Positions 7,197-31,999 of a stretch of 64,000 nucleotides of DNA are shown one piece after another. Source of the stretch: an archaeon (GTDB lineage: Archaea; Undinarchaeota; CAZHTU01; JBDRCC01); the NCBI GenBank assembly GCA_043822065.1, contig JBDRCC010000007.1:1-64000 (forward strand), given 5' to 3'. Below the pieces are notes generated by a model, which saw only the letters and a program-made list of their open reading frames with translations, was not told the origin of the DNA and did not search any database. The translations under genes were made by a program, and so were the position numbers. Each line of letters opens with the position of its first letter. Position 1 is the first letter of the stretch.

Positions 7197-7205
7197 CTAT
7201 TTCGT

Positions 7206-7277: not shown

Positions 7278-7316
7278 CTCATAACAATTAAATACTTCTA
7301 AACAGAATGAATCTGC

Positions 7317-8141: not shown

Positions 8142-8192
8142 ACCTGTTAAAATGGCTATTCCGCGCATTTGCTACCCATCTCTCGCCGAGGT

Positions 8193-8975: not shown

Positions 8976-9012
8976 GCTTTTTTAATATGCCGTGCGACCC
9001 TTTCATATAAAC

Positions 9013-10017: not shown

Positions 10018-10117
10018 GGTAGCCTATTGGGCTTAGCATTATAAAAACCTATTTGCCCAATTTGCCAAATCAAAAAGCTTATATTCCCGTCCCCCTTTTT
10101 CCCCTAAAATCCATTCA

Positions 10118-10687
10118 TTGGAGGTGGACAAAATCGCAGACGACAAACTAGCAAATCCGGCGCCCCTCGGTCTGATGGGCTTCGGCATGACTACAGTCCT
10201 TCTGAACCTGCACAACGCCGGCTACTTCGCATTGGGCACGATGATACTCGCGATGGGTATCTTCTACGGCGGAATCGCCCAGATACTAGCTGGAATAATG
10301 GAGTTCAAGAAGGGGAACACTTTCGGGACGACGGCATTCACTTCGTACGGCCTTTTCTGGCTTACGCTTGTGGGACTGCTCGTCATGCCTGCGATGGGCT
10401 GGGGCTCTGCTCCTTCTTCGACGGCAATGGCTGCGTACCTGTTCATGTGGGGCCTGTTCACATTCTACATGTTTATCGGCACCCTTAGGCTGAGCAAGGG
10501 CCTGCAGTTCGTGTTCTTCACGTTGTTCGTCCTCTTCTGGCTGCTTGCCTTAGGCAAGGCGACCGGAAGCGCGGCGATAACCAAGTTTGCCGGATATGAG
10601 GGCATACTGTGCGGATTCAGCGCAATTTACGTTGCAGCCGCCCAGGTATTGAACGAAGTGTACGGCAAGACTGTGCTGAAAATTTAG
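10118..10687 (+). CDS. GPR1/FUN34/YaaH (SatP-like) acetate transporter
   Basis: [35 protein letters not shown]. Confidence 0.92.
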
Positions 10688-10729
10688 AATAACTCGCGGC
10701 ATGGCGCAAGCCATGCCCCCTTGATTTTT

Positions 10730-11980: not shown

Positions 11981-12014
11981 TGATCTGCATACCTTCCAAG
12001 CCTGCGTTGAGGCA

Positions 12015-15268: not shown

Positions 15269-15871
15269 ATGCAGGAGATAGTGCAGTTCCTAGTTGACAA
15301 CATTGGCAGCCTCGGCTACGGAGGCATTTTCATCCTGATGTTTCTTGAAAGCTCATTCTTCCCCTTCCCAAGCGAGGTTGTGATGATACCTGCCGGCTAC
15401 CTCGCATACAAGGGCAGCATGAACATCTACCTGGCAGTGCTTGCAGGGATACTGGGGAGCTATTTCGGGGCGATTTTCAACTATTTCCTCGCGCACCGGC
15501 TCGGGAGAAAGCTCCTCATAAAATACGGGGCGTACCTATTCATAAAGCCGGAGACACTTGAAAAGCTTGAGAAGTTTTTCGAGACCCACGGCCACATCTC
15601 GACATTCACCGGGCGGCTCCTCCCTGGCATCCGGCAGTACATTTCGCTTCCGGCAGGCCTTGCCAAGATGCCGCTCGGGATTTTTTCCGTTTACACAATC
15701 GCCGGCGCAGGGCTCTGGGTTTCAATACTGGCGGTTCTCGGCTATGTGATTGGCGGCAACGAAGCCCTGATCGTAAAATACCTGCACAGCATAACCCTTG
15801 TCATGGTGGTGCTTGTTGGGGCGCTAATCGCAGCCTATTACGTGAACTACAAGAGAAAGCAGGCAAAATAG
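15269..15871 (+). CDS. dedA: DedA family membrane protein
   Basis: [36 protein letters not shown]. Confidence 0.92.
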
Positions 15872-18189: not shown

Positions 18190-18888
18190 ATGCGGTGCGC
18201 GCTGTTAATCACTGCACTTCTTCTGCTTACAGCTTCAGCTTCCGCTGCCGCATCCGAATTCCTCATAGAAAAGGACCTTGGCACTTTCAAATTCATAAAG
18301 TCGTCCGAGGGGCTTGGCTTAACTGGCGAATCCTACACTGCCAGCTACCGCCACGAAATCGCCTTCCGGGGCGAAGTCCAGGAGAGCACTACCTACAAGG
18401 TAGAGGTTGAGGTGCCGAAATACCGGGACCCGCAGTCGATATTCAATGCCTCAGATGCCGCCCTCCGGCGGACCGGCTCTGTCAACTACAAGCTAGTAAT
18501 CGGCGGCTCGGACACTCTTATGTGGCCATCAGGCAATTATCTTGTCAGAATAACATACAAGCACGGCTCCTACTTCCCGTCGCGCCTCCTCAATGCGTAC
18601 AGCTCAAAGTACCCAAGCGAGGCTCCGACGCCTGAGTACATACGAAAGTTTGAGGTTCCGGAGTATAACAGCACAGACGACATCCAGTACGCGGAGGGGT
18701 GTGGGATTGTTAGTAAGCGCATCCGCGGCTATTACTGCTCAAACATGGGGCGCTTCGAACGCCAGAGGGACCCAGGCGACTTCTGCCTTGAGGGTTACGA
18801 GTGCAGGAGCACCAGATGCGTCGACCAGCTTTGCACGTCACCCTATGGGATCGTCGGGAAGCTGTTTGCGCTCGCTTCGTACCTATAG
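18190..18888 (+). CDS. Secreted protein with Cys-rich C-terminus
   Basis: Signal peptide; C-x4-EC-x-S-x2-C-x4-C motif. Confidence 0.65.
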   Translation: MRCALLITALLLLTASASAAASEFLIEKDLGTFKFIKSSEGLGLTGESYTASYRHEIAFRGEVQESTTYKVEVEVPKYRDPQSIFNASDAALRRTGSVNYKLVIGGSDTLMWPSGNYLVRITYKHGSYFPSRLLNAYSSKYPSEAPTPEYIRKFEVPEYNSTDDIQYAEGCGIVSKRIRGYYCSNMGRFERQRDPGDFCLEGYECRSTRCVDQLCTSPYGIVGKLFALASYL

Positions 18889-20608: not shown

Positions 20609-20683
20609 GGGGCCGTGGGGTAGTCTGGCGACCTTCTTTCAAAAAGAAGCGCGACCAAGAAACTCCCGGCTCAACCACGGCAT
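20609..20683 (+). repeat. 20-bp exact copy of the tRNA-Pro 5' end plus 55-nt hairpin insert
   Basis: GGGGCCGTGGGGTAGTCTGG at 20609-20628 and again at 20684-20703. Confidence 0.9.
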
Positions 20684-20761
20684 GGGGCCGTGGGGTAGTC
20701 TGGTCTATCCTGCCGGCTTTGGGAGCCGGCGACCCCAATTCAAATTTGGGCGGCCCCACCA
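20684..20761 (+). tRNA. tRNA-Pro(TGG), CCA encoded
   Basis: GGGGCCG/CGGCCCC-ACCA, CCGGC-TT TGG GA-GCCGG. Confidence 0.93.
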
Positions 20762-20803: not shown

Positions 20804-22204
20804 ATGCGCCGGCTGCTTTATCTCTTCACAATAATTGGGATTCTGGTAGCCCCCGCGCTCTGCGCAGACAAGTACATTTTCGTGTCAATCGAGGGCGAGC
20901 AGAGCAGGCTGGACGTCGATGAGCAGCTCGACCTTGTAGTGCAGGTCTTCAACCCAAACCACGAGGATATTAGCGTCACCCTTGAGGTGACTGGCGCGAT
21001 ATATTCCTGGGCGACCCTGAAGGACACCCGCCTTACTGTGCCGATGCTCTCTAATGCGTCCACGACCCTCTACGTCGACGCGCCATTCGACGCGCCGGCA
21101 GGCTCGTACAGCATAGGGGTGACTGCATACCTGTCAAAAGACAAGTCGCTGTCTGGGAAGGGCGGCTACACCCTTACCCTCCTCCCGCAAGAAAAGGTTT
21201 CCGTGCTTTCCTCAACTGACAAGGGCGAATACTCCCTTACCGACGAAATGTCATTCCTTGCGGAGGTCGAGAACCTCGGGAACGTCCAATACGACGACCT
21301 CACGGTGAAGGTCAGATTTTTGGGGCAGGCGGAATGGTCCACCGAAAAGAAAATATTCCTGGACTCCAAGGAGCGCAGGGCAGTCGCAATGGATGTTGAC
21401 CTCCAGAAAGTCGTCGCCGGCAAGCAAACAGTCCTGACCGAAGTATACGCTGCGGACAACTACCTCGCCAACACCACGAACCAGCTGACAATCTTCCCCA
21501 CAAAGGACATATCCAAAACAGAGAACTCGACTGCCGGCTTCTGGCGGAAAACCTACACTCTTGTAATTGAGAACCGCGGAAACACTCTCGAGGTGGTGGA
21601 CGTCAGAAAGGCATTCCTTCCGCTCGAGGCAAATTTCCTTTCATCGTCCATCGAGCCAGCAAGGGCGGGATTATTCTCTTCGACCTGGTCCATTACAGTC
21701 CTCCCTGGCGAGAAAAAAGTCCTTGAGTTCTACACCTACGGCACAGTCCTCTATATATTCGACCTAATCGCGCTCCTCGTTTTCCTTGGCTTCGGCTACC
21801 TGAGCATAATGAAAATCCAGAACCGCTCGCCTGCCGAGGTCACCAAGGGCATGGTCGCAATATACTCCAAGGGCGGGAGGATGGACCTGACCGTTTCACT
21901 CTTAATAAAGAACAAGGGCCCCCAGCGCCTCACAAACATACTCGTCACAGACTCAGTTCCGATAAGCGTCCGCGTCAGCCGGTTCAGGACGGCAAGGCCG
22001 ACGCAGATTAACGAGCGCAAGTACGAGATTGAGTACATGTGGTCAATTCACTCGCTCCAGCCGTTTGAGGAGCGCGTAATCGTCTACGACATAGGCGGCG
22101 AAGCCGTGCCCAAGACGCTCCCCCAGGCGACCGTCCGCTCGACCAACAAGCATGGCAAGACCCTCTTCCACAAGTCGAATATCGTCCGGCTCCAGCAGCC
22201 ATAG
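20804..22204 (+). CDS. Cell-surface protein with Ig-like domains and one TM helix
   Basis: Signal peptide, VENLGNV/IENRGNT CARDB-like strands, TM helix, NKG...VTDSVP domain. Confidence 0.7.
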   Translation: MRRLLYLFTIIGILVAPALCADKYIFVSIEGEQSRLDVDEQLDLVVQVFNPNHEDISVTLEVTGAIYSWATLKDTRLTVPMLSNASTTLYVDAPFDAPAGSYSIGVTAYLSKDKSLSGKGGYTLTLLPQEKVSVLSSTDKGEYSLTDEMSFLAEVENLGNVQYDDLTVKVRFLGQAEWSTEKKIFLDSKERRAVAMDVDLQKVVAGKQTVLTEVYAADNYLANTTNQLTIFPTKDISKTENSTAGFWRKTYTLVIENRGNTLEVVDVRKAFLPLEANFLSSSIEPARAGLFSSTWSITVLPGEKKVLEFYTYGTVLYIFDLIALLVFLGFGYLSIMKIQNRSPAEVTKGMVAIYSKGGRMDLTVSLLIKNKGPQRLTNILVTDSVPISVRVSRFRTARPTQINERKYEIEYMWSIHSLQPFEERVIVYDIGGEAVPKTLPQATVRSTNKHGKTLFHKSNIVRLQQP

Positions 22205-22263
22205 CCTAACAGTAAATTTATTAAGCCATGGACTCTAACTAATCCTCACAGCTAGATTGGTTT

Positions 22264-22332
22264 GTCCCCTTGTAGCTCAATGGCAACCCTTTGCTTCGGC
22301 AAAGCGTTGGCGGAGAAGCTGAGGGAAACAAC
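22264..22332 (+). repeat. 20-bp exact copy of the tRNA-Tyr 5' end plus 49-nt hairpin insert
   Basis: GTCCCCTTGTAGCTCAATGG at 22264-22283 and 22333-22352; insert contains CTTTGC-TTCG-GCAAAG. Confidence 0.9.
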
Positions 22333-22334
22333 GT

Positions 22335-22439
22335 CCCCTTGTAGCTCAATGGTAGAGCGTCCGGCTGTAGTCTGGTTAAGTCCGCAAGGAAAGCCATGCG
22401 GGCACCGGAAGGTTGCTGGTTCGAGTCCGGCCGAGGGGA
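22335..22439 (+). tRNA. tRNA-Tyr(GTA) with canonical intron 22371-22403
   Basis: C1-G72 acceptor CCCCTTG/CGAGGGG-A, TCCGG-CT GTA G^A-CCGGA, relaxed BHB. Confidence 0.9.
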
Positions 22440-22517
22440 CTCCTATTTATTTAAAAAATAAAGGTGCAGGAGAGCATTCCCCCGCACATCTCTTCATAAA
22501 ATCTTTACAAGCAGAAA

Positions 22518-22874
22518 TTACTTCCTAACAGTTGCGCTTACTTTTGAAGACGCTGCACCGGTTCTCCTATCTGGAGCCGTCTTGCTACCTGCAGTCCGTC
22601 TCTGCCTTCTAAAATCTTCCCGGTCATACTCTGTGGCAACTGCGTTAAATCCGCTGTTTCTCAGCTCATTGCTGGCATTCTTTCGAATCTCGTCAGAAGA
22701 ACTATCTTTATCTCCAAATCTTTTAGTTATCCTGTCCGATATCTGTCTCGCAACTTCATCGGCGCGGTCCTTAAAATCTGAAGTGCGGCGAGCTGCCTCA
22801 CGAATAGACCTCTCAATTTTCTGCCCGTTAAAGGCCTCTGTACCTCTTGAACCCCTTTTCTTAACTTTAGCCAT
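22518..22874 (-). CDS. Stand-alone ATP-cone domain protein (cassette 1)
   Basis: KVKKRGSRGTEAFNGQKIERSI...SSDEIR...A..Y ATP-cone pattern. Confidence 0.75.
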   Translation of the reverse strand: MAKVKKRGSRGTEAFNGQKIERSIREAARRTSDFKDRADEVARQISDRITKRFGDKDSSSDEIRKNASNELRNSGFNAVATEYDREDFRRQRRTAGSKTAPDRRTGAASSKVSATVRK

Positions 22875-22980
22875 TATTTTATCCCCCCATTTAAACCAAT
22901 CTTCTCATTTTATAAATTACTTGTGCATATACTTCCTATACGCTTAGGTTCACGCCCAATAGTCAAATGAAAGGTTCCGG

Positions 22981-23011
22981 GCTGGTTCAAATCCGGCCGA
23001 GGGGACTCCTA
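22981..23011 (+). repeat. R1: copy of tRNA-Tyr 3' end (att-like)
   Basis: GCTGGTTCAAATCCGGCCGAGGGGACTCCTA vs 22415-22445, 29/31 identical. Confidence 0.92.
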
Positions 23012-23065
23012 CAAAAAGAAAACTTATTTATTGAGCAAAAACTCTACTGAGCCTTAGTATAACCT

Positions 23066-24109
23066 ATGACCGAAAAACGAGAGCTTAAATTTTTCGAGAA
23101 GTACCTGACCCTCTGGGTTTCGTTGTGTATATTAGCCGGCATCCTGTTCGGGAAGTTTTTCCCGGCAGTTGCAACTTCGCTGAACGGCATCCAATATGCC
23201 AACGTATCAATACCCATAGCTGTCCTGCTGTTCTTTATGATATACCCCATAATGGTCCAGATAGACATTCGGGACGTCATAAAGGCAGGCAAAACGCCGA
23301 AGCCGGTTGCCCTCACGCTTTTCGTAAATTGGGCAATAAAGCCCTTCTCAATGGCATTCATTGCATGGCTTTTCATGAGCCGGATTTGGGCTGGTCTGAT
23401 TCCTGGGGCAATGGCGACGGAATACACCGCCGGCATGATTCTCCTTGGTGTGGCGCCCTGCACTGCAATGGTTCTCGTCTGGAGCTACCTCTCAAAGGGG
23501 AACATGGGCCATACGCTCGTCATGGTCGCAATAAACTCGCTCACGATGCTCGTTCTTTATGCGCCAATTGCGGGCTTCCTGCTCGGCCTTACAGACATAC
23601 CCGTCCCGTGGCTGACGATTGCATTATCCGTTGCCGTTTACGTTGGCGTCCCTCTATTTGCGGGATACTTCTCCAGGAAGGAGCTGTTGCGGAGGTGGGG
23701 GCTTACATGGTTTGAGGAATCTTTTGCCCCCAAGCTAAGGACAGTTTCCATAGTTGCACTCCTCATTACCCTTATCACACTGTTCAGCCTGCAGGGCGGC
23801 GTTATCCTTGCACAGCCATTCGTAATAGCTCTCATCGCAATACCTCTTTTTATCCAGACGATGTTCATTTTCGGCCTTAGCTATTGGCTGTCACAAAAAA
23901 TAGGGCTTACTTATGCCGATGCTGCCCCAACGTCCCAGATAGGTGCAAGCAACCACTTTGAGGTTGCGATTGCAATGGCAGTCATGCTTTTTGGGATAGA
24001 CTCCGGAGCGGCGCTGGCGACCGTAGTTGGAGTTTTAATCGAGGTCCCTGTTATGCTGGGTTTAGTCAAGATATGCCTTGCAACTCAGCATTGGTTTCGC
24101 TCTTCTTAA
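23066..24109 (+). CDS. acr3: ACR3-family arsenite efflux transporter (cassette 2)
   Basis: [53 protein letters not shown]. Confidence 0.95.
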
Positions 24110-24114
24110 AAAGA

Positions 24115-24151
24115 GGGATTACAATTGCAGTTGAAACCCGGCAGAGGGGAC
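24115..24151 (+). repeat. R2: cassette-end repeat
   Basis: GGGATTACAATTGCAGTTGAAACCCGGCAGAGGGGAC, 6 nt after acr3 stop. Confidence 0.85.
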
Positions 24152-24182
24152 CTATTTATATTTCTACGTTTTAACACATGCC

Positions 24183-24695
24183 ATGGCTTCCAAAATAAAA
24201 CTCTATGCCAAAGGCATTGAATCGTATCTCATCTCAACTGTAATCCTTGGCAATTTTATGATGCTCTCATGGATTGCACTGGGGACCATGGCTACCCGGT
24301 TCTTCAGCCCCCTGATTGCTCAGGCTTATCTGGCCATTGCTTTGATAATGGTCTACGTTGTCTTGCGGAAGCTCGTATGCACAAACTGCTATTACTATGG
24401 CAAGTGGTGCCCTACTGGCTGGGGAAAACTGTCTGCACGTCTATTCAAGAAAGGAAAGGTAGACGAATTTGCAAACAGCATTGGCGTAAAACTCGCCCCG
24501 GCTACATATGGGCTGTTGAGTCTGGTTCCGATTGTACTAATTATTATTTCACTATGGCAAGCCTTTACATCCTCTAAGGTTGTTGTACTGGTGCTGCTGC
24601 TTTTGGTTTCAGCTTACAGTGGCTCAATAGGCAGAAAGAAGTCCTGCGCGAACTGCAAGATGCGATTAATTTGTCCTGGCTGTGCTGTGAAGTAA
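24183..24695 (+). CDS. Membrane protein with Cys clusters (cassette 3)
   Basis: CTNCYYYGKWC and CANCKMRLICPGC; 4 TM segments. Confidence 0.7.
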   Translation: MASKIKLYAKGIESYLISTVILGNFMMLSWIALGTMATRFFSPLIAQAYLAIALIMVYVVLRKLVCTNCYYYGKWCPTGWGKLSARLFKKGKVDEFANSIGVKLAPATYGLLSLVPIVLIIISLWQAFTSSKVVVLVLLLLVSAYSGSIGRKKSCANCKMRLICPGCAVK

Positions 24696-24699
24696 TTCA

Positions 24700-24736
24700 G
24701 GGATTACACTTGCAGTTGAAATCTGGCAGAGGGGAT
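24700..24736 (+). repeat. R3: cassette-end repeat
   Basis: GGGATTACACTTGCAGTTGAAATCTGGCAGAGGGGAT, 5 nt after stop. Confidence 0.85.
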
Positions 24737-24786
24737 GTTTCCATTTTGTACGATAAAAATATAACCTGCTCTTCTTTACCTCTATC

Positions 24787-25950
24787 ATGCCGCAGAACAG
24801 AAAGCTTGGGGGGCTTGGAAGAAACATACTTTTGCTCGCCATTGTCAGCTTCTTAGCTGATGTCAGCAGTGAGATGATAACGCCGATTCTCCCGCTGTTC
24901 ATTCTTACACTTGGCGGGACAGGCGTAGCAATTGGCCTGATAGGTGGCGTAGGGGACTCCATTGCAAGCTTCCTGAAGGTTCTGTCCGGCTACTGGTCCG
25001 ATAGAATTGGGAAGCGCAAGCCGCTGGTAGTAGCCGGATACTTTACCTCTGCCTGCGCTAAATTGTTTTTTCCATTCGCAGCGGTGTGGCAACACATACT
25101 ACTACTAAGGTCTGCCGAAAGAGTCGGCAAGGGCGTCCGCACTGCACCACGTGACGCAATAATAGCACTGTCTTCGGACAGAAAGAAACTTGGCAAGGGG
25201 TTTGGCTTTAATCGGGCAGCAGACTCTGCAGGGGCCGTAGTTGGGACTTCCCTCGCGTTCATCTTTTTTTGGTTTCTTCATTTCGATTTGCAGAAAATCT
25301 TCCTGATAGCTGCGTTTGTCGCCTTCCTGGCCTTGGTGCCGCTTCATTTTGTCAAGGAGAAAAATTCAATGCCCACTAAGTCAAACCTGAAAATTAGTCT
25401 GTCGTCCCTTCCGCCGAAACTTCAGTCGTTTATCTTTATTTCAGCCCTCTTCTCATTTGCCGATTTCACTTACATGTTCTTTATTTTAAGGGCTGGCGAG
25501 TCATTCTCTGGAACTGCAGCGGTTGCAGTGCCGATACTGCTGTATCTCCTGTTCAATATGACTTACGCTTCTTTCTCAGTCAAAACCGGTGACCTCTCTG
25601 ACAGAATAGGGAGGACGAAAGTAATACGCGCAGGTTACCTCTTGTTTGTGGCAGTTTGCATTGGTTTTGTCTTTCTTGAGTCACTGCCTTGCCTTGTGCT
25701 CCTCTTCCTCGCCTATGGCATTGTCTACGCCCTGGTGGACGGAACTCAGCGCGCATATGTCTCGGACCTCAGCAGCGAAGGACTCAAGGGGACAGCACTT
25801 GGCACATTCCACGCCGCAAACGGATTCGCAGACCTACCGAGCGGGATTATCGCAGGTGTCCTATGGCAGTACGTAAGCCACGAAGCGACATTCGTTTTCG
25901 GGGCGTTTTTCGCCCTGTGCGCTTTCATATTGTTAAGGAACCAAAATTAA
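24787..25950 (+). CDS. MFS transporter (cassette 4)
   Basis: SFLADVSSEM, GYWSDRIGKRKP, RVGKGVRTAPRDA, GDLSDRIGR. Confidence 0.92.
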   Translation: MPQNRKLGGLGRNILLLAIVSFLADVSSEMITPILPLFILTLGGTGVAIGLIGGVGDSIASFLKVLSGYWSDRIGKRKPLVVAGYFTSACAKLFFPFAAVWQHILLLRSAERVGKGVRTAPRDAIIALSSDRKKLGKGFGFNRAADSAGAVVGTSLAFIFFWFLHFDLQKIFLIAAFVAFLALVPLHFVKEKNSMPTKSNLKISLSSLPPKLQSFIFISALFSFADFTYMFFILRAGESFSGTAAVAVPILLYLLFNMTYASFSVKTGDLSDRIGRTKVIRAGYLLFVAVCIGFVFLESLPCLVLLFLAYGIVYALVDGTQRAYVSDLSSEGLKGTALGTFHAANGFADLPSGIIAGVLWQYVSHEATFVFGAFFALCAFILLRNQN

Positions 25951-25951
25951 T

Positions 25952-25988
25952 GGAATTATAACTGTAGTTGAAACACAGCCGAGGGCAC
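25952..25988 (+). repeat. R4: cassette-end repeat
   Basis: GGAATTATAACTGTAGTTGAAACACAGCCGAGGGCAC, 2 nt after stop. Confidence 0.75.
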
Positions 25989-26077
25989 GCCCCCTCTATT
26001 TGGCAATACATAACCATATAAACTTCCTCTGCCAAGAAGTACTGCCCCATTATTCATCGGGGCAGGAATAAAACATA

Positions 26078-26290
26078 ATGGCATACGAAAACAACTTCCA
26101 AGGTGGAAGTGGAAACTTTAACAGGCCGCCGCGCGAGATGCACTCCGTTGACATAAATGGCAACGAGCTCGTTTGCGCAGACTGCAAAACAACTGGTTTC
26201 CAGCTACCTTTCAAGGCAGACGGCAGCAGGCCGGTTTACTGCTCGGATTGTAACAGGAATCACAGACCACCACAGAGAGACAGGTTTTAG
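26078..26290 (+). CDS. CxxC-x17-CxxC zinc-binding small protein (cassette 5)
   Basis: PREMH...CADC...LPFK...RPVYCSDC. Confidence 0.85.
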   Translation: MAYENNFQGGSGNFNRPPREMHSVDINGNELVCADCKTTGFQLPFKADGSRPVYCSDCNRNHRPPQRDRF

Positions 26291-26379
26291 TAAATAGCGC
26301 ATAGAAAAATTAGCACATATTGATTTTTCTTAAAGAGATTTACTGAATAGCTACGCCTCTATAGGGGTGGGACTGAAAA

Positions 26380-26416
26380 CAGATTGTACCTTTAGTTGGC
26401 CCTCAGGCGAGGGCTC
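26380..26416 (+). repeat. R5: degenerate cassette-end repeat
   Basis: CAGATTGTACCTTTAGTTGGCCCTCAGGCGAGGGCTC, 25/37 ungapped to R4, followed by CTATTTATTTAA as after the tRNA. Confidence 0.6.
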
Positions 26417-26593
26417 AACTATTTATTTAACTCGTTCTCGAATTTTTCATACTACTCAGAGTAGACCTGCTCCGCCGGCTTTCCGCGGATGTTCCACTCC
26501 TTGCTCTTTGGGGACGAAGCGGGTGCTTATACTATTGAAGTATATTTGATTGCAGCCTCACGCATGGGGCTTCGTAAACGCTTTGTGGTTTAG

Positions 26594-26941
26594 TATCCTC
26601 ACCAGGACAATCAGCGGCAGTTCGACCCGCTCTATGAGAAATACGGCACGCCGATAATCATGATGACGCCATTCCAGAGCTGCGAGTACGGCGCAAAGCA
26701 GGACTGGTTCGAGCCGATGATGCTCCAGCCGGACGTCAAGCAGGACCTGGTTGCGCAGGCAGACATGTACGAGGCGTTCTTCTCAGCGACAATCGACGAG
26801 CCATGGTTTGCCGGGCTCATGACCTGGGGCTACTACTTTGAGGACGAGTTCAACACTAAGGAGTATGCCTCAGAAAAGTCCTCGACCGTCAGGAACAAGC
26901 CGGCGGCGCAGATTGTCAAAAAAATGGTTCGAGCAGATTGA
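26594..26941 (+). pseudogene. C-terminal fragment of a GH113/TIM-barrel glycoside hydrolase-like gene
   Basis: QADMYEAFF...PWFAG..W...RNKPAAQI; N-terminal part missing. Confidence 0.55.
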
Positions 26942-27050
26942 GTAATCTCCCTCCCTTCAGCCAATACATGGGGGATACAAATCTATATAAACCCCTATTG
27001 ACAAATAAAACTGTCCTCACATACTGTTGAGGGCAGGAAAAATAACTAAA

Positions 27051-27281
27051 ATGGATCGTGAAAACAGATTCGGTGGACGCGGAAGAAGTAACTTTGACAG
27101 GCCTCGCGGAAATTTCGACAGGCCGGATAGGGAAATGCACACAACGTATGACGACGGCACTCCGACGGTTTGCGCAGACTGCAAAGCAACCGGCTTTGGC
27201 GTACCCTTCCAGCCAAAAAAGGACAGGGACCTCTACTGCCAAAACTGCATAAAAAACCACCAGAAGCCAAGAAGGTTCTAA
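27051..27281 (+). CDS. CxxC-x17-CxxC zinc-binding small protein (paralog of 26078)
   Basis: DREMH...CADC...VPFQP...LYCQNC. Confidence 0.85.
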   Translation: MDRENRFGGRGRSNFDRPRGNFDRPDREMHTTYDDGTPTVCADCKATGFGVPFQPKKDRDLYCQNCIKNHQKPRRF

Positions 27282-27406
27282 CAAGTAGACCCTAGAAAAG
27301 ATTAAACTTTTTGATTTTTTCTTAGAGCTTTACTTAGTGTAAGATTTGCACAAATATATCCCGGCAGTTTTGCCGGGTACAATTTTTTTTATCAACAATA
27401 GGTTAG

Positions 27407-27967
27407 CTATCCCTTTTTTCTTAAATACTCAAGAAGCCCTGGCGTGAGGACCGGCTTGCCCTCGAACACAGGTATTGCGTAATCAAGGGTTATGCTCTCA
27501 TTCTCGCTGAACTCAATCTCCGGCTTGTTTGAGAGCAGTACATCCTCCAGCTTTGCCCCGTCCGCAACCTTCTTCGCCATGAAGCATGCCCCGTCGATGC
27601 TAAGCTGGTACTGGCCGATTGAGCGCGGGATTCCGTTGAGCTTGGACGTTATGAGGTCCTTTGTCCTCCCGCGGGGCATGGCGTCGCCAAGTATGCCCCC
27701 GATTACAATCTTGTCTGCAAGCTTGAAGTCATCCGGGCTGAGGAGCTTATCCGTCTGAGGGTCAAGCACGATAACCTTTTCGCCTTTCAGGAAATCTGCC
27801 GCGCTCTCCTTGCGGAAATGCCCTATTTTTCCTATGGCCCGCTGGTCTTTCTCCAGGCTGACGTTGGTGAACAGCAGCTCACCGCCGGCAATCTTCCCGC
27901 AGTGCCTGTACTCGAGCTCCATCCACTCGCTTACGCCCCGTTCGCAGTGCTCGACAATGAAAAGCAT
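27407..27967 (-). CDS. SPOUT-class SAM-dependent methyltransferase (Sfm1-like)
   Basis: IVEHCE...WMELEY, LDP, IGGILGD..PRGRT, QLSIDGA; start set at MLFIVEH. Confidence 0.8.
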   Translation of the reverse strand: MLFIVEHCERGVSEWMELEYRHCGKIAGGELLFTNVSLEKDQRAIGKIGHFRKESAADFLKGEKVIVLDPQTDKLLSPDDFKLADKIVIGGILGDAMPRGRTKDLITSKLNGIPRSIGQYQLSIDGACFMAKKVADGAKLEDVLLSNKPEIEFSENESITLDYAIPVFEGKPVLTPGLLEYLRKKG

Positions 27968-28073
27968 ACTGAAATTATCTCGCCTTGGTTTAAGTCCTTG
28001 CGGGTGCGGCCGCCGCATTATGCCAAATTCCAAGCTTGGTGACATTTTTATACTGCCTTGGATTCAATAGATT

Positions 28074-28721
28074 ATGGCGCTTTACAACACGACCCAGATA
28101 GCCCCGCTCATTGCGGAGAACTTCTCAACTGCTGATGCAATTGCCGCGTCGCGCCCGCTTGCAGCTTATGTTTTTGCAATAGCAATATACGCAATCTTCA
28201 TCTTCAAGTTCTACCGGTTCCTTGGACGGAAAGACGTCTTTTCCATCGACCTGGCGAAACACTCCAACACCCGATTTGCGGGCGCAAAGAAGTTCTTCAG
28301 CGTAGTTTTTTATGTACTCAAGTACCTGATACTCTTCCCGCTTGTCGTCTTCGTATGGTTTGCATTCCTCGCCCTGATGCTGATATTCCTGGCGAAGAGC
28401 GGCACAGTTGAGCAAATAATGCTAATCTCAGTTTCGCTTGTCGGCGCCGTTCGCGTCTGCGCCTACTACGACGAGGACCTATCGAAGGACTTGGCGAAGC
28501 TGCTGCCGCTGGCTCTGCTTGGCGTTTTCATCGTTGACCGGTCGTACTTCAACTTCAGCAATTCGGTACTGACCCTCTTGTCCCTTCCGGACTACTGGAA
28601 GCTCCTGAGCTACTACATGGTCTTCATAGTTTCGCTTGAGTTTGTGCTCCGGGTGCTGTCCGGCACCGCAGGCATGCTGTTTGGCCGTGGCGAAAAAAAG
28701 CAGCAAAACATAAAGGATTAA
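28074..28721 (+). CDS. Conserved archaeal membrane protein
   Basis: Multi-TM; AYYDEDLSKDLAKLLPLALL. Confidence 0.65.
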   Translation: MALYNTTQIAPLIAENFSTADAIAASRPLAAYVFAIAIYAIFIFKFYRFLGRKDVFSIDLAKHSNTRFAGAKKFFSVVFYVLKYLILFPLVVFVWFAFLALMLIFLAKSGTVEQIMLISVSLVGAVRVCAYYDEDLSKDLAKLLPLALLGVFIVDRSYFNFSNSVLTLLSLPDYWKLLSYYMVFIVSLEFVLRVLSGTAGMLFGRGEKKQQNIKD

Positions 28722-28745
28722 ATATTCCAGGGACAAAGGATAGCT

Positions 28746-29051
28746 ATGGCAATCGTGCTTTTTAACTCAGTAACGTTGGCCTTTTCCGTGCCAATCTTTG
28801 CCGGAGCCGCAGCAGGCTTCATACGGGCGTTTCTCGGCTACCTCAAGGCGCGCTACAAGAACGGCGAGGCATTCGTTGCAGGGAAATTCGTCCAGCCAAT
28901 TATTTTTTCAGCAGGTGTCGGGGCCGCGATTGGGTACTATATGTCGCAGGCAGATCCTTTATTCATAGGCGCGGTCGCAATCGCAGGCAGCACGCTAATT
29001 GACTCCATCGTATGGGTTTTTGTAGGGAAGAAAAAGCCGCAGGCCGATTAG
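28746..29051 (+). CDS. Small membrane protein
   Basis: 3 hydrophobic segments. Confidence 0.55.
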   Translation: MAIVLFNSVTLAFSVPIFAGAAAGFIRAFLGYLKARYKNGEAFVAGKFVQPIIFSAGVGAAIGYYMSQADPLFIGAVAIAGSTLIDSIVWVFVGKKKPQAD

Positions 29052-29290
29052 TCAAGCAGCTTTAAGTCTTTGGCCATTCTCCAGGCGACGTACGCAGTCA
29101 CAGGATAGAGTATCGCATACGAGCCTGCGTCCATGAACCTGCTGCCTGAGCCGACATTGGTGCAGCCGGAACTGGCGAGAAGAAGAATAGGGAGGATGGT
29201 TTTTGTGGCAAGATGCCTCATCCTGGTGCGTAGCCCTGTGGCTTTTACCCCAGTACTAGACGCACATTGGGACGAAAGTTTTGAAACCAT
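29048..29290 (-). CDS. Hypothetical small protein, possible lipoprotein
   Basis: LLLASSGC lipobox-like; start uncertain. Confidence 0.35.
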   Translation of the reverse strand: MVSKLSSQCASSTGVKATGLRTRMRHLATKTILPILLLASSGCTNVGSGSRFMDAGSYAILYPVTAYVAWRMAKDLKLLD

Positions 29291-29577
29291 CTCCCCCCAC
29301 TAGGTGTTGAAGATAGAGCATTCAACCCCTAATAACCTATCATGGTCACATCCCTTTATAGATTTTTCGTGTTTTGCTTTTTTTATTGGAATATTTGTTT
29401 AAATATTGCCTATTTTTAGAAAAAATCCATAAAAACTGATACTTTTTGAACGAATTCCAAAAAATACATACTTCCCCACCTCCGAAACTGGAAATTTTAC
29501 AGCATTGCGTTCCTGCCGCATACTGAAAAATTTTCAGCATTATAGGAAAAATATAAATACCTTTCAGCCCTCCTGAT

Positions 29578-30060
29578 ATGGGGATTGGCTTGAAAATTAC
29601 TGAACCTGACTTAAAACTCCTCTCCGAACTCCAGATTGACGCAAAACAGCCCCTCAAGGTGCTGTCGAAAAAGCTCAAAGTCCCAGTCTCAACTCTGCAC
29701 TCAAGGATAAGCAAGCTGGAGAAGGGGGGCGTGATACAAAAATATTCTGCTGTGCTTGACCCCCAAAAGCTGAACATGAACTTCACCGCCCTTGTGTTCT
29801 GCACCCTGCGGTTCCAAGACGCTGAGGAGAAGCCCATCACAGTCGAAAAAATCCTTGATGAGCTTAAAAAAATTCCTGAAATCCAGTCAATCTTTTTAAC
29901 CACCGGCCAGCGCGACCTCATTCTGAAGGTAAAAAGCCACAAGGTCGAGGACGTGTCCTCAATCATAGCAAAGAAAATACGCTCAATCCGCGGCATAGAG
30001 CGGAGCGAGACTTATGTCTGCTTCAACGTAGTCAAGGATTCGCTTGACCTGCCAATCTGA
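29578..30060 (+). CDS. Lrp/AsnC transcriptional regulator
   Basis: DLKLLSELQ.DA...HTH...RISKLEKGGVI; TGQRD. Confidence 0.92.
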   Translation: MGIGLKITEPDLKLLSELQIDAKQPLKVLSKKLKVPVSTLHSRISKLEKGGVIQKYSAVLDPQKLNMNFTALVFCTLRFQDAEEKPITVEKILDELKKIPEIQSIFLTTGQRDLILKVKSHKVEDVSSIIAKKIRSIRGIERSETYVCFNVVKDSLDLPI

Positions 30061-30410
30061 TGATTGAAGAGGAGCATAGGCGCGCGGTTGAAAAATTGAA
30101 AAAGCTCTCAGCCGAAGGCGTGCCGATTCTTGCCGAAGGCATTCGGGACCTGAACCGCCTGAGGGCGATTGGCGTCGAGGGCGAAATAATCCTCATCCAG
30201 GGCAAGAGCATGCCGCGGCTGGTCCATGACCTCGGCGGCCTGAAGGCGCTGATAATCCTTACGGATTTTGACCGGACAGGCGCCCAGAAGTGCTCGCGGC
30301 TCAAGACGCTGCTTGAGGGATATGGGGTTAAGGTCAACACCGACCTGCGGCTGAAGATATTCAGCACAACCTTCTCAAAGCGGGTCGAAGAGCTTCACCT
30401 GCCAGAATAA
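30060..30410 (+). CDS. Small Toprim-domain protein
   Basis: AEGIRD, IILTDFDRTG. Confidence 0.82.
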   Translation: MIEEEHRRAVEKLKKLSAEGVPILAEGIRDLNRLRAIGVEGEIILIQGKSMPRLVHDLGGLKALIILTDFDRTGAQKCSRLKTLLEGYGVKVNTDLRLKIFSTTFSKRVEELHLPE

Positions 30411-30442
30411 AGTATATCAAGCGCGTTGCACAATACTCTCGC

Positions 30443-31015
30443 ATGGCAACGTATTTTCCGCTTAACCTGAAGGCATGGAGAAACGACGAGTATGGATTTA
30501 CTATCCGGATAGCCGTCCCTGCCGACTATGACGCGCTGGTAACTGCGTGGGCTGAAATCGAGGAGGGCCGGCGCTCCATTGCGCGCGTAAACATGCTCAA
30601 GGAGAGCATAGAGCGTGGCTGGGTTATAGTGGCCGAAGAACGCGGAGACATTTTTGGGTATTCAGATATAACCCCCATATATACGAAATATTCAGATTTC
30701 CCAGTCACCCACCTGGCAGTCAGCGGCGTTTCGCCGAGGGATGGCGGGAAATACCGCAAGACGGGGGTCCATGAAGTCATGAGCATTCTTAGGATTTTAG
30801 GGATACTTGGCAAGACCCAAACTGCATGTTCTTATGTGGACTCTGAGTCTCTCTTAAGCCGGCGGGAGGCCATTGCAAAAAAGCTTGGGATACCGCTTAC
30901 CATTGTTAGAGGGGAAAATAACATCACCCTGAACTACGACCTGACCTGCGACATCAAAAAAATAGAGAAAAAAATTCGTGAACACCTAACCTCCCTTAAG
31001 TGGCATGAGGCCTAA
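30443..31015 (+). CDS. Hypothetical protein, GNAT-like fold
   Basis: TIRIAVPADY...VIVAEERGDIFGY. Confidence 0.5.
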   Translation: MATYFPLNLKAWRNDEYGFTIRIAVPADYDALVTAWAEIEEGRRSIARVNMLKESIERGWVIVAEERGDIFGYSDITPIYTKYSDFPVTHLAVSGVSPRDGGKYRKTGVHEVMSILRILGILGKTQTACSYVDSESLLSRREAIAKKLGIPLTIVRGENNITLNYDLTCDIKKIEKKIREHLTSLKWHEA

Positions 31016-31060
31016 TCTGCAATAAATTTATTAACTGCCAGACCTATCTTGTTGTATAGG

Positions 31061-31516
31061 ATGGCGAAGCTAGAACTCAAAAAAGCACCTCAGGGTCTGC
31101 AGATGCTGCTGGGTGACATAATCAGGTCAATACCCGAGTTCGGCCACATCGACCCCTCCCGAGTCCACCTTATAGTGTCAAACTCGGACTCGCGGGCGCT
31201 TGCACTCTGCCATGAGATGTCAAGGAGGATACAGTTCGCATTAGGCGTCCCGCCGCACTACGTCATAGAGCTTGTGGAAAAACACTGGAGTGGCTTGGAC
31301 GCTGAAATGAGGGCAAAAGTCCTGATACACGAGCTATACCACATCCCAAAGACCTTTTCCGGGCATCTCAGGAGCCATGACCACAGGAAGGGCTTCGGGA
31401 GGTACTCCCGCAGGCTCGAGGAGGACCTTTACCGCGATTACCTGCACAAACACCCCCAAAAGTCCAGGGAAGAGGCGCTTGCGCTCGTCAAAACCCTCAC
31501 TTTTTCCGGTTTTTAG
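31061..31516 (+). CDS. Putative metallopeptidase (HExxH)
   Basis: YVIEL...KVLIHELYHIPKTFSGHLRSH. Confidence 0.8.
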   Translation: MAKLELKKAPQGLQMLLGDIIRSIPEFGHIDPSRVHLIVSNSDSRALALCHEMSRRIQFALGVPPHYVIELVEKHWSGLDAEMRAKVLIHELYHIPKTFSGHLRSHDHRKGFGRYSRRLEEDLYRDYLHKHPQKSREEALALVKTLTFSGF

Positions 31517-31570
31517 CAGGAATAAGCCTAAATCCAAACCTATATATAGTATCTTATAGTGATTATCGAA

Positions 31571-31692
31571 GTTAGCGGTCATAGCAGAGGGGTCACACCT
31601 GGTCTCATTCCGAACCCAGAAGTTAAGCCCTCTAGCGATTTTGATTGTACTATCTTGCGAGAGCAGATGGGAACTCAAAGACGCCGCTAGCA
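31571..31692 (+). rRNA. rrf: 5S rRNA (unlinked)
   Basis: GCGGTCATAGC...CTCATTCCGAACCCAGAAGTTAAGCC...GCCGCTA; ends approximate. Confidence 0.92.
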
Positions 31693-31815
31693 CTTCCACA
31701 TAAGAAAGCCGGTGAGTGCCAATTGGCGAGACCCGAAAAAACAACAAATACATTCTAATTATAGTCCTTGCTGAGCTAGTGCTATAATTAGGGGGGTCAC
31801 TCGGCTGAGGCGAAT

Positions 31816-31888
31816 GCCCGGATGGTGTAGTGGCCTAGCATAGAGCCCTGTCGAGGCTCTGACGCGGATTCAAATTCCGCTCCGGGCG
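31816..31888 (+). tRNA. tRNA-Asp(GTC)
   Basis: GCCCGGA/TCCGGGC-G, GAGCC-CT GTC GA-GGCTC. Confidence 0.93.
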
Positions 31889-31893
31889 CTCTC

Positions 31894-31967
31894 GGGCTCG
31901 TAACTCAGGTTGGCAGAGTGCTTGGCTTTTAACCAAGAAGTCGCGGGTTCAAATCCCGTCGGGCCCA
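31894..31967 (+). tRNA. tRNA-Lys(TTT)
   Basis: GGGCTCG/CGGGCCC, CTTGG-CT TTT AA-CCAAG. Confidence 0.92.
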
Positions 31968-31999
31968 TTCCCGTTCGCGGGCCGCAAAGAGAAAACAAG

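What the first reader, a model, noticed from the sequence alone, without database searches (positions are those of the whole stretch)
22415..26430. Integron-like, polarised array of single-gene cassettes anchored at the tRNA-Tyr 3' end, with no integrase
Seen: five copies of the tRNA-Tyr 3' end (T-loop plus acceptor strand) follow the tRNA at spacings of 566, 1145, 585, 1252 and 428 bp. Each interval holds exactly one gene: ATP-cone, Acr3, Cys-rich membrane protein, MFS, CxxC-x17-CxxC. R2-R4 start 2-6 nt after the stop codon. Hand-counted identity to the 22-nt tRNA core GTTCGAGTCCGGCCGAGGGGAC falls monotonically with distance: 20, 17, 16, 15, 13. Beyond R5 lie decayed fragments and a CxxC paralog. 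Known: tyrosine integrases use tRNA 3' ends as attB and leave an attR copy, and tandem island accretion exists, but such islands are usually multi-gene and carry their integrase. Inference: minimal gene-plus-att units are inserted one at a time at the tRNA by a recombinase acting in trans, pushing older ones outward. That would be an archaeal gene-capture array that records the order of acquisition.
Basis: partly seen in the sequence, partly recalled or inferred. Interest (0 to 1): 0.9.

Follow-up and report, generated by a model that had tools for sequence, protein, structure and literature searches.

The report
Single-gene insertion array behind tRNA-Tyr
Behind a tyrosine tRNA gene of a tiny DPANN archaeon lie five decaying copies of the tRNA's tail, each closing off one foreign gene; this looks like a miniature record of repeated DNA insertions at one spot, a known process in an unusually small format.

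Summary
An intron-containing tRNA-Tyr (22335-22440) is followed by five same-strand copies of its 3' end at spacings of 566, 1145, 585, 1252 and 428 bp. Identity to the 22-nt core is 20, 17, 16, 15 and 13, and each interval holds one gene. The repeats are not a generic motif: nothing else in the 1.03-Mb genome matches them. A profile of R2-R4 picks out tRNA-Tyr 3' ends among 101 distinct tRNA tails. All five genes have low GC3. One belongs to a family shared across domains. In two other genomes tRNA-Tyr lies 0.5-0.8 kb from 5S rRNA; here the gap is 9.1 kb.

The best reading is fossil tandem accretion by site-specific integration at the tRNA. The units are minimal and lack an integrase, like CIMEs or the Dehalococcoides ssrA islands, but about 1 kb each.

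The integron analogy is only partly supported. There is no attC-like fold, no integron integrase, and the repeats are decaying. R2-R5 share derived characters, so identity to the tRNA is not a clean age clock. No close relative, read set or second example could be obtained, so mobility and the recombinase remain untested.

The parts
22335..22440 (+). tRNA-Tyr(GTA) with an intron. It is the anchor and presumed attB; its 3' end is copied downstream.
   Evidence: Rfam RF00005 58.3 bits, E=5.4e-11. ARAGORN -i gives anticodon gta and an intron.
22518..22874 (-). Unit 1 gene: stand-alone ATP-cone protein, 118 aa, on the minus strand. GC3 is 0.40 (1st percentile).
   Evidence: Pfam PF03477, E=1.2e-9. 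GC3. No relative sharing words in 5.8 billion proteins other than itself.
22973..23017 (+). R1: copy of the tRNA-Tyr 3' end from the variable loop to 6 nt past the gene. 20 of 22 in the core.
   Evidence: D7 (31 nt, 94%), and (31.5 bits locally).
23066..24109 (+). Unit 2 gene: ACR3-family arsenite efflux transporter, 347 aa.
   Evidence: NCBIfam TIGR00832, 383 bits against a cut-off of 282.8. Pfam SBF. GC3 0.58.
24114..24164 (+). R2: 37-nt family member plus a CTATTTAT trailer. It starts 4 nt after the ACR3 stop. 17 of 22 in the core.
   Evidence: D1.
24183..24695 (+). Unit 3 gene: 170-aa Cys-rich membrane protein of unknown function. Its family is spread across archaea and bacteria.
   Evidence: No Pfam or NCBIfam match. 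452 homologues; the 120 listed are 55-78% identical. GC3 0.51.
24699..24750 (+). R3: 92% identical to R2 over 37 nt. It starts 3 nt after the stop. 16 of 22 in the core.
   Evidence: D1.
24787..25950 (+). Unit 4 gene: MFS transporter, 387 aa.
   Evidence: Pfam MFS_1, E=9.2e-35. GC3 0.55.
25951..26001 (+). R4: 76% identical to R2 over 37 nt. It starts directly after the stop. 15 of 22 in the core.
   Evidence: D1.
26078..26290 (+). Unit 5 gene: 70-aa CxxC-x17-CxxC zinc-ribbon protein (zf1).
   Evidence: Pfam zf_Tbcl_2. NCBIfam TIGR04272, 37.2 bits against a cut-off of 36.
26381..26430 (+). R5: the most diverged copy, 13 of 22 in the core. It shares CGAGGG plus an exact 12-nt trailer with the tRNA. 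It also folds as a hairpin followed by a T-rich run.
   Evidence: D6 (83% of 23 nt). The 12-mer occurs only twice in the genome. Fold z = -4.6.
26597..26941 (+). C-terminal third of a GH113-like gene: a truncated remnant with native-like GC3 of 0.77. It marks the decayed distal edge.
   Evidence: Pfam PF22612, profile positions 203-273 of 289, below cut-off. GC3. No full copy in the genome.
27051..27281 (+). zf2: paralogue of zf1, 49% aa identity. Promoter, 5' leader hairpin and 3' region are duplicated with it.
   Evidence: (D2, D3, D5, D16).
27341..27390 (+). Possible sixth, very weak copy behind zf2. It shares GATT and CCCGGCAG with R2 and is mainly a hairpin plus a T run. Not established.
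   Evidence: By eye. Fold z = -3.45. Not found by the profiles.
31571..31692 (+). 5S rRNA, followed by tRNA-Asp, tRNA-Lys and rpoB''. This is the conserved partner block of tRNA-Tyr in other genomes and shows that the 9.1 kb between is extra.
   Evidence: Rfam 97.4 bits. Synteny in G004 and G017.

Best explanation
The array is the footprint of repeated site-specific integration at the 3' end of tRNA-Tyr (tandem accretion).

In this model each incoming circle carried a mimic of the tRNA-Tyr 3' end (attP) and recombined with the tRNA (attB). That rebuilds an intact tRNA and leaves a junction copy (attR) distal to the cargo. A later arrival at the tRNA pushes the earlier units outward. R1-R5 are those junction copies. 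Their 5' arms, which are absent from the tRNA, come from the incoming elements.

At least two att-site families were involved: R1 on one side, and R2-R5 on the other.

The cargo consists of foreign accessory genes: an ATP-cone protein, an ACR3 arsenite pump, a Cys-rich membrane protein, an MFS transporter and a zinc ribbon. Each has its own TATA-like promoter.

The units are minimal and carry no integrase, like cis-mobilisable elements. The recombinase therefore acted in trans or was lost. The outer sites are decayed, so the array is largely a fossil.

Shown: the repeats, their tRNA-Tyr origin, the foreign composition, and the extra DNA relative to conserved synteny.
Inferred: integration as the mechanism, the order of events, and the trans recombinase.

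Within this reading I put about 0.4 on the units having moved as one-gene cassettes. The rest goes to trimmed larger elements or a block assembled elsewhere.
For: - Repeat counts and spacings are reproduced. R1 is 94% identical over 31 nt, and R2-R4 form a 37-nt family.
- The repeats are locus-specific. No other hit to the R2-R4 profile exists in the genome, and R1 is its best non-self hit (E=0.1). No further copies lie in 22000-32000.
- The R2-R4 profile scores tRNA-Tyr tails highest. The top 8 of 101 distinct tails are all Tyr (14 Tyr tails), and the best of 86 non-Tyr tails scores 4.3 bits. Tails of another genus score 10.7 bits against 6.2 for the host's own tRNA. That fits arms brought in from outside.
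- The 12-nt trailer is shared only by the tRNA and R5.
- All five genes have GC3 in the lowest 13% of 547 long ORFs. The proximal gene is the most deviant, at 0.40.
- The Cys-rich gene has 55-78% identical homologues in Undinarchaeota, Altiarchaeales and several bacterial phyla, but only 23-36% identical ones in 4 of 16 other genomes of the phylum.
- None of its 21 loci in other genomes has an ACR3, MFS, ATP-cone or zinc-ribbon neighbour. The genes are therefore not a travelling operon.
- Synteny: in G004 and G017, tRNA-Tyr is followed after 0.5 and 0.8 kb by 5S, tRNA-Asp, tRNA-Lys and rpoB. Here the gap is 9.1 kb.
- G006 has 8.4 kb in the same gap, with a TraG/VirB4-like ATPase and a PrgI-family protein.
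- Integrases other than Xer exist in the phylum. One lies next to a tRNA-Gly.
- Known precedents: tandem integration in archaea and integrase loss (PMC8371274, passages); tandem ssrA islands with an extra conserved arm beside the repeat, some perhaps CIMEs (PMC3146451, passages).
Against: - No integrase, integrase fragment or excision product was seen. Only XerA was found.
- No relative close enough for a presence/absence test was available. The nearest held genomes are 2 of the same order, and the phylum has 17 held genomes.
- The R motif was found nowhere else: 0 hits in viral contigs, 0 in metagenome contigs, and 0 of 16 other genomes of the phylum.
- Three unrelated genes each ending 0-4 nt before the same 37-nt arm is not what random decay of large elements predicts.
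- R5, and the weak site behind zf2, are good hairpin-plus-T terminators and could owe part of their likeness to that role.
- zf1 and zf2 are paralogous units. At least one unit may therefore have arisen by local duplication rather than integration.
Confidence: 0.6

Rival explanations
1. This is a working, integron-like capture platform: one-gene cassettes, each ending in a tRNA-Tyr-mimic site, are inserted one at a time at the tRNA by a recombinase encoded elsewhere. The array is then an ordered log of acquisitions.
For: - Regular, compact units. The spacer from repeat core to start codon is 59, 31, 50 and 89 nt (coordinates), and the repeat arm begins 0-4 nt after the stop in three unrelated genes.
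- R2-R4 share an arm.
- No integrase is present locally.
- The proximal unit has the most foreign composition.
- zf1 and zf2 look like paralogous cassettes, each with its own 3' element.
Against: - There is no attC-like imperfect palindrome. No consensus fold was found, and z-scores for R2-R4 were 0.52, -0.67 and -0.53. There is no consistent inverted partner upstream (P = 0.12, 0.02, 0.68).
- The only tyrosine recombinase scores as XerA (258.9 bits, above cut-off) and below the integron-integrase cut-off (194.3 against 265).
- R4 and R5 are decayed.
- Each unit has its own promoter, and one unit is inverted.
- Identity to the tRNA mixes two att families and is not an age clock.
- No second example was found anywhere searched.
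Confidence: 0.15
2. A few larger integrative elements (plasmids or viruses) inserted at the tRNA and were then trimmed by deletion. Alternatively, the block R1 to R4/R5 was assembled in another host and arrived in one event. In either case the one-gene pattern is secondary.
For: - Archaeal integrated elements without an integrase are attributed to gene loss after integration, and tandem integration is known (PMC8371274, passages).
- DPANN genomes are streamlined.
- G006 holds an 8.4-kb plasmid-like insert in the same gap with no detectable repeat at up to 5 mismatches in 24 nt.
- A truncated GH113 remnant at the distal edge shows that deletions occurred here.
Against: - Three independent deletions would each have had to stop at a promoter on one side and leave the gene's stop codon 0-4 nt from the att arm on the other.
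- No pseudogene debris lies inside units 2-4, which are about 94-96% coding by the coordinates.
Confidence: 0.15
3. The repeats are cis-acting 3'-end modules (a terminator or processing signal) copied locally from the tRNA-Tyr end plus its T-rich trailer and placed behind neighbouring genes. The genes themselves did not move as units.
For: - The repeats sit directly after stop codons and are followed by T-rich tracts.
- R5, and the site behind zf2, are strong hairpins followed by T runs (z = -4.6 and -3.45).
Against: - R2-R4 have no conserved or unusually stable fold.
- The motif is used nowhere else in the genome.
- This reading does not explain the foreign composition of all five genes or the arm that resembles other lineages' tRNA-Tyr more than the host's.
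Confidence: 0.05
4. Host XerA moves the units, as Xer-exploiting elements and pdif modules do in bacteria (that comparison is recalled, not read here).
For: - XerA is the only recombinase found.
- An archaeal XerA binds stem-looped unrelated att sites weakly (PMC8371274, passage).
Against: - No dif-like 11-6-11 dyad was found. The best arm matches were 6-8 of 11 against a null mean of 6.66.
- The assembly is only 82% complete, so another recombinase may have been missed.
Confidence: 0.03

Closest known systems
Tandem ssrA-specific genomic islands of Dehalococcoides (PMC3146451; passages read)
   Same: - Several islands lie in a row downstream of a small RNA gene, each bounded by a direct repeat of its 3' end.
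- A conserved motif just upstream of the repeat does not align with the RNA gene. This corresponds to the arm shared by R2-R4.
- The DNA is low in GC and interrupts synteny.
- Some islands lack the integration module and are suggested to be cis-mobilisable.
   Different: - Those islands are multi-gene, and 16 carry a six-gene integration module with a serine recombinase.
- They occur in bacteria and target tmRNA.
- Here the units are 0.43-1.25 kb with one gene each, none has a recombinase, and the host is a DPANN archaeon.
Cis-mobilisable elements (CIMEs) and accretion at tRNA genes in streptococci (PMC5704250; passages read)
   Same: - The elements retain attL and attR but have lost integration and transfer genes.
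- New elements integrate next to them at the same tRNA 3' end and give tandem arrays.
   Different: - CIMEs are described as decayed ICEs or IMEs, and movement in cis with a functional neighbour has been demonstrated.
- Here no functional neighbour exists, nothing shows descent from a larger element, and the units are far smaller.
Integrated elements at archaeal tRNA genes, tandem integration and 'gene capture' (review PMC8371274 and PMC9897764, passages read; She et al. 2001 seen only in a reference list)
   Same: An intact tRNA lies at one end and a partial 3' copy at the other. Tandem integration at one locus and integrase-less integrated elements are reported.
   Different: Reported examples are 9-23 kb (PMC9897764). 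I found no description of one-gene units or of a five-copy series in the passages and listings.
Integrons and integrase-less attC clusters (CALINs), including archaeal ones (PMC9668308; passages read)
   Same: Arrays of short single-ORF units are each followed by a recombination site. New units are thought to enter at one end. Arrays often lack a nearby integrase.
   Different: - The repeats here are about 40-nt tRNA mimics without the attC hairpin.
- There is no IntI and no attI next to an integrase.
- The units carry their own promoters.

Membership tests
tRNA-targeted integrated element / genomic island | Intact tRNA at one boundary and a direct repeat of its 3' part at the other | tested here: met
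   tRNA at 22335-22440. R1 is 94% identical over 31 nt. R2-R5 score 17-13 of 22 and are specifically tRNA-Tyr-like.
tRNA-targeted integrated element / genomic island | Integrase gene within the element | tested here: not met
   Pfam on all array ORFs shows none. Genome-wide there is one PF00589 hit, an XerA on contig C10. PF16795 and PF00239 gave no hit. The assembly is 82% complete.
tRNA-targeted integrated element / genomic island | Foreign composition and interruption of conserved synteny | tested here: met
   GC3 is 0.40-0.59 against 0.671 +/- 0.081. The tRNA-Tyr to 5S gap is 9.1 kb here against 0.5 and 0.8 kb in G004 and G017.
tRNA-targeted integrated element / genomic island | Repeat-bounded presence or absence among close relatives | not testable with these tools
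   No relative closer than order level is held.
Integron / CALIN | attC sites: imperfect palindromes of 57-141 bp with inverse core and core sites (sizes and motifs recalled) | tested here: not met
   R2-R4 have no consensus fold, and z-scores are 0.52 to -0.67. 116-nt DNA folds are inconsistent. There is no significant upstream inverted partner in 2 of 3.
Integron / CALIN | Integron integrase (IntI) | tested here: not met
   TIGR02249 scores 194.3 bits, below its cut-off of 265. The same protein passes the XerA equivalog, 258.9 against 220.
Integron / CALIN | Tandem single-ORF units, each followed by a site, in one orientation | tested here: inconclusive
   4 of 5 genes are on the plus strand with the repeat downstream. 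The ATP-cone gene is inverted.
Xer-dependent modules (IMEX / pdif-like) | dif-like site: two 11-nt inverted arms around a 6-nt spacer (PMC8371274, passage) | tested here: not met
   The best dyads at the tRNA and R1-R5 match 6-8 of 11. The null mean is 6.66, and P(>=8) is 0.135.
Cis-mobilisable element (CIME) | Flanked by att sites and lacking integration and transfer genes | tested here: met
   Each unit lies between two tRNA-Tyr-end copies and holds one non-recombinase gene.
Cis-mobilisable element (CIME) | Derived by decay of an ICE or IME, and mobilised in cis by a neighbouring functional element | not testable with these tools
   No functional element is adjacent, and there are no population or experimental data.

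The most novel reading that the evidence does not exclude
DPANN archaea possess a tRNA-anchored analogue of the integron. One-gene cassettes (promoter, ORF, and a roughly 40-nt mimic of the tRNA-Tyr 3' end placed directly after the stop codon) circulate between lineages. A recombinase encoded elsewhere (an MGE integrase or host XerA) inserts them at the tRNA-Tyr gene. The tRNA therefore serves as the attI-like entry point, and the array stores acquisitions in order.
Probability: 0.2. Interest if true: 0.85.

Novelty: new variant of a known kind. Interest (0 to 1): 0.55.

Why it matters
Small-genome DPANN archaea depend on acquired genes, but how they take up and keep single useful genes is poorly known. 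An accretion array in which every att-bounded unit is one gene would be the smallest format of site-specific gene capture described at a tRNA. It would sit between classical genomic islands and integron cassettes.

If the units prove mobile, this gives a concrete and testable route for gene flow into DPANN genomes. The flow would include cross-domain genes such as the Cys-rich membrane protein, and metal or drug efflux functions. It would also supply a compact attB/attP pair for archaeal genetics.

If the units are only fossils, the locus still dates a series of insertions at a hot spot that is also occupied in another family of the phylum.

Tried and rejected
Chance or a generic motif: rejected.

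attC-like structure: rejected. One 116-nt fold around R2 had z = -3.89, but R3 and R4 did not (z = -0.42 and -1.72), so I do not count it.

dif-like dyad: rejected.

Coding potential of the repeats: R2-R4 are open in one frame by eye. Their differences are mostly non-synonymous (6 of 8 between R2 and R4 by my own reading), so they are not treated as coding.

The extra profile hit at 31580 lies inside the 5S rRNA.

Searches that found nothing:
- R2/R3 consensus, the tRNA 3' end and a merged pattern in viral contigs.
- R2-R4 pattern in metagenome contigs.
- R2/R3 pattern with up to 3 mismatches in the 17 genomes of the phylum: only the window's own two copies.
- Relatives of the 472-aa upstream protein in metagenome contigs.
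- Phage records: no match. Plasmid records: only short ACR3 gene pieces in 16 records.
- PHROGs on nine local proteins: one weak, irrelevant hit.
- 3'-end copies downstream of tRNA-Tyr in loci of 13 other genomes (L013, L017-L029): none at up to 5 mismatches in 24 nt.
- R-like sequence behind homologues of the cassette genes or near the phylum's integrases: none.
- Sequencing runs: none was listed, so read laying was not used and empty-site or circle reads could not be sought.

A genome self-comparison gave no similar repeat family.

That relative has RpoB'' at 81% and the Cys-rich protein at 78% identity. Supplementary files of papers were not requested; those of PMC9668308 and PMC9897764 may list small or DPANN cases that I could not see.

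My literature claim ('no one-gene tRNA-anchored array described') rests only on searches and on passages of five papers.

Full report
WHAT IS THERE

The window is the first 64 kb of a 143-kb contig of a 1.03-Mb, 22-contig assembly. The assembly is 82% complete and 0.05% contaminated. It is archaeal. tRNAs carry introns, RNA polymerase subunit B is split, and the closest RpoB'' (81% identity) is named 'Candidatus Undinarchaeota archaeon' by its source. Only 17 genomes of the phylum are held, and the nearest are two of the same order but of other families.

Default ARAGORN missed the tRNA. Rfam finds a tRNA at 22335-22439 (58.3 bits) with a 36-nt insertion.

THE REPEATS

Identity to the 22-nt core is 20, 17, 16, 15 and 13, and the spacings are 566, 1145, 585, 1252 and 428.

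- R1 matches the tRNA over 31 nt at 94%, and the homology runs from the variable loop to 6 nt past the gene.
- R2, R3 and R4 are a 37-nt family of their own (92% and 76% to R2). Their 5' half has no counterpart in the tRNA.
- R5 matches the tRNA end plus trailer at 83% over 23 nt.

The pairwise matrix over a 38-nt register shows a chain rather than a star: tRNA-R1 27, R1-R2 21, R2-R3 34, R2-R4 29, R4-R5 25, tRNA-R5 14. R2-R5 share AGTTG where the tRNA has GGTTC. R1 and R2-R5 therefore descend from different source sequences. The fall in identity to the tRNA is partly a family difference and not only age.

MORE THAN CHANCE, AND tRNA-Tyr-SPECIFIC

- A profile of R2-R4 finds only its three members in the whole genome at E < 0.01. 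Its best other hit genome-wide is R1 (E=0.1, 13.1 bits), in the same array and on the same strand.
- The tRNA/R1 profile finds R2 and R3 at only E=4.9 and 7.7 genome-wide. That direction is weak on its own.
- The 12-mer CTATTTATTTAA, and the spaced motif GAGGG-N5-CTATTTAT, each occur only twice in the genome on both strands: after the tRNA and in R5.
- The R2-R4 profile was scored against 101 distinct 3' tails of 108 tRNAs from this genome and from the loci of other genomes. Its eight best scores are all tRNA-Tyr (14 Tyr tails, the window's own set aside). The best of 86 non-Tyr tails scores 4.3 bits. The tails are from kin and are not independent.
- Tails of one other genus of the phylum score 10.7 bits, against 6.2 for the host's own tRNA.
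- No further copy lies between 26430 and 32000. The one weak hit there is inside the 5S rRNA.
- A possible sixth site behind zf2 (27341-27390) is visible only by eye and is not counted.

THE GENES

- tRNA to R1: a 118-aa ATP-cone protein on the minus strand (Pfam E=1.2e-9).
- R1 to R2: an ACR3 arsenite efflux transporter (383 bits against a cut-off of 282.8).
- R2 to R3: a 170-aa Cys-rich membrane protein without a family.
- R3 to R4: an MFS transporter.
- R4 to R5: a 70-aa CxxC-x17-CxxC protein.

The R2-R4 family starts 4, 3 and 0 nt after the stop codons. The spacer from repeat core to the next start codon is 59, 31, 50 and 89 nt and holds a TATA-like box (read). Units 2-4 are thus almost wholly coding and have no debris.

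All five genes are single-copy apart from the zf1/zf2 pair, which is 49% identical at the protein level. zf1 and zf2 share promoter, leader hairpin, gene and 3' region. One of the two units may therefore be a local duplicate.

Beyond R5 lies the C-terminal third of a GH113-like gene with native-like GC3 of 0.77.

FOREIGN ORIGIN

GC3 of 547 long ORFs is 0.671 +/- 0.081. The five array genes have 0.40, 0.58, 0.51, 0.55 and 0.59, which places them at percentiles 1, 11, 4, 7 and 13. The flanking 472-aa gene, the SFM1-like gene and rpoB'' have 0.73, 0.68 and 0.71.

The Cys-rich protein has 452 homologues. The 120 listed are 55-78% identical. The named ones are from Undinarchaeota, Altiarchaeales, Cloacimonadota, Dehalococcoidia, Deltaproteobacteria, Patescibacteria and WOR-3. 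Within the phylum, only 4 of the 16 other genomes have a homologue, at 23-36% identity.

In its 21 loci from other genomes, no ORF resembles the other cassette proteins. The ATP-cone protein has no word-sharing relative at all.

SYNTENY

- In G004 (same phylum) the order is tRNA-Thr, tRNA-Tyr, 5S rRNA (about 480 nt later), tRNA-Asp, tRNA-Lys, rpoB''.
- In G017 (another phylum) the order is the same, with about 820 nt between tRNA-Tyr and 5S.
- In the window, tRNA-Tyr ends at 22440 and the 5S rRNA starts at 31571. About 9.1 kb is therefore extra, and the array is its tRNA-proximal 4 kb.
- In G006 (another family of the phylum) the same gap holds 8.4 kb, with a TraG/VirB4-like ATPase and a PrgI-family protein. 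The site is used repeatedly.
- In G001 (same order) the upstream tRNA-Pro, the homologous gene (30% identity) and tRNA-Tyr are kept. An AMP-binding enzyme follows, and its homologue here lies on another contig.
- No downstream 3'-end copies were seen at tRNA-Tyr in L013 and L017-L029 (loci of 13 other genomes) at up to 5 mismatches in 24 nt.

RECOMBINASES

The assembly has one PF00589 protein. It is 295 aa, lies on contig C10 and passes the archaeal XerA equivalog (258.9 against 220 bits). It fails the integron-integrase models. No SSV-type integrase domain and no serine recombinase was found.

In the phylum, 7 of 17 genomes have PF00589 matches. They include proteins of 346-432 aa that are not Xer-sized, and one lies beside a tRNA-Gly. 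An MGE-borne integrase acting in trans is therefore plausible but unseen.

WHAT THE REPEATS ARE NOT

- R2-R4 have no conserved or unusually stable fold as RNA. As 116-nt DNA only R2 stands out.
- They have no consistent inverted partner in the gene ends.
- They have no dif-like 11-6-11 dyad.
- R5 and the site behind zf2 are strong hairpins followed by T runs. They probably also act as terminators.

READING

The anatomy is what site-specific integration at a tRNA produces, repeated several times. There is an intact tRNA and distal junction copies. The arms of those copies come from the incoming DNA, and they resemble other lineages' tRNA-Tyr more than the host's. The cargo is foreign, and the array is extra DNA inside a conserved RNA-gene block.

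The same logic is documented for the tandem ssrA islands of Dehalococcoides. There a conserved motif beside each repeat does not align with ssrA, and some islands lack the integration module (PMC3146451, passages). It is also documented for CIME accretion in streptococci (PMC5704250, passages). Tandem integration and integrase loss are reported for archaea (PMC8371274, passages).

What is unusual here is the scale and regularity. There are five units of 0.43-1.25 kb, one gene each. Three unrelated genes end 0-4 nt before the same arm. That regularity favours units that moved as minimal cassettes over random trimming of large elements. However, there is no evidence of activity, no enzyme, and no second example in any collection searched. 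I therefore file it as a new, miniature variant of tandem accretion. It is not an integron, and the integron-like reading stays open at about 0.2.

LIMITS

This is one locus in one metagenome-assembled genome. No close relatives, reads or earlier notes were available. The order and timing of events, and whether the block was assembled here or elsewhere, cannot be told from these data.

Noticed in passing
window 20609-20628 and 22264-22283; G000 contig C8 about 15634-15653 and 18421-18440 (minus strand): Four tRNA genes (Pro-TGG, Tyr-GTA, a C8 tRNA that ARAGORN calls Tyr, and Asn-GTT) carry a copy of their own first 17-20 nt, 58-82 nt upstream. Two copies are exact 20-mers. Each copy is followed by a short perfect hairpin and then a stretch complementary to the copied acceptor strand. 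The leader therefore folds into a long, mini-tRNA-like hairpin (-26 to -31 kcal/mol). TATA-like boxes precede the upstream copy. Not seen at up to 3 mismatches at tRNAs in loci of 14 other genomes (L013, L017-L030). Unexplained.
   Followed up: partly
window 24183-24695: The 170-aa Cys-rich membrane protein (CxxC motifs, no Pfam or NCBIfam family) belongs to a well conserved family. 452 hits were found, and the 120 listed are 55-78% identical. The family occurs in archaea and many anaerobic bacterial phyla, with no conserved link to ACR3 or MFS genes. Function unknown, and probably frequently transferred.
   Followed up: partly
L019 (G006:C4) 3619-12002: Another family of the phylum has 8.4 kb between tRNA-Tyr and 5S rRNA. 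The insert holds a TraG/VirB4-like ATPase, a PrgI-family protein, a TrmB-like regulator and a papain-like protease. This looks like an integrated plasmid-like element at the same hot spot, without a detectable tRNA-end repeat.
   Followed up: partly
window 26040-26075 and 27010-27048: zf1 and zf2 each have a hairpin in the 5' leader just before the start codon. Some of its pairs appear to be kept through changes on both sides between the two copies (by eye). This may be a regulatory element of these CxxC-x17-CxxC genes.
   Followed up: no
window 26597-26941: An isolated C-terminal third of a GH113-like glycoside hydrolase with native-like codon composition and no full-length copy in the assembly. 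It is a truncated gene remnant at the distal edge of the array.
   Followed up: partly
window 20684-20761; G000 contig C8 15479-15571: Rfam at gathering threshold did not list the tRNA-Pro(TGG) that ARAGORN calls. The second 'tRNA-Tyr' on C8 scores like a non-Tyr tail with the repeat profile and may be mistyped because of its intron. ARAGORN found more tRNAs when contigs were scanned one by one than in the multi-record run.
   Followed up: no
L062 (G012:C28) 1833-2609: A 432-aa tyrosine recombinase lies directly beside an intron-containing tRNA-Gly(TCC) in another genome of the phylum. This is a classical integrase-next-to-tRNA arrangement and a candidate for the kind of enzyme that could act on such sites.
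   Followed up: no
G000 contig ends: Several contig ends overlap by exactly 141 nt at 100% identity (for example C7:1-141 with C18). Others overlap over 350-850 nt at about 92%, which suggests assembly-graph breaks at strain variants.
   Followed up: no
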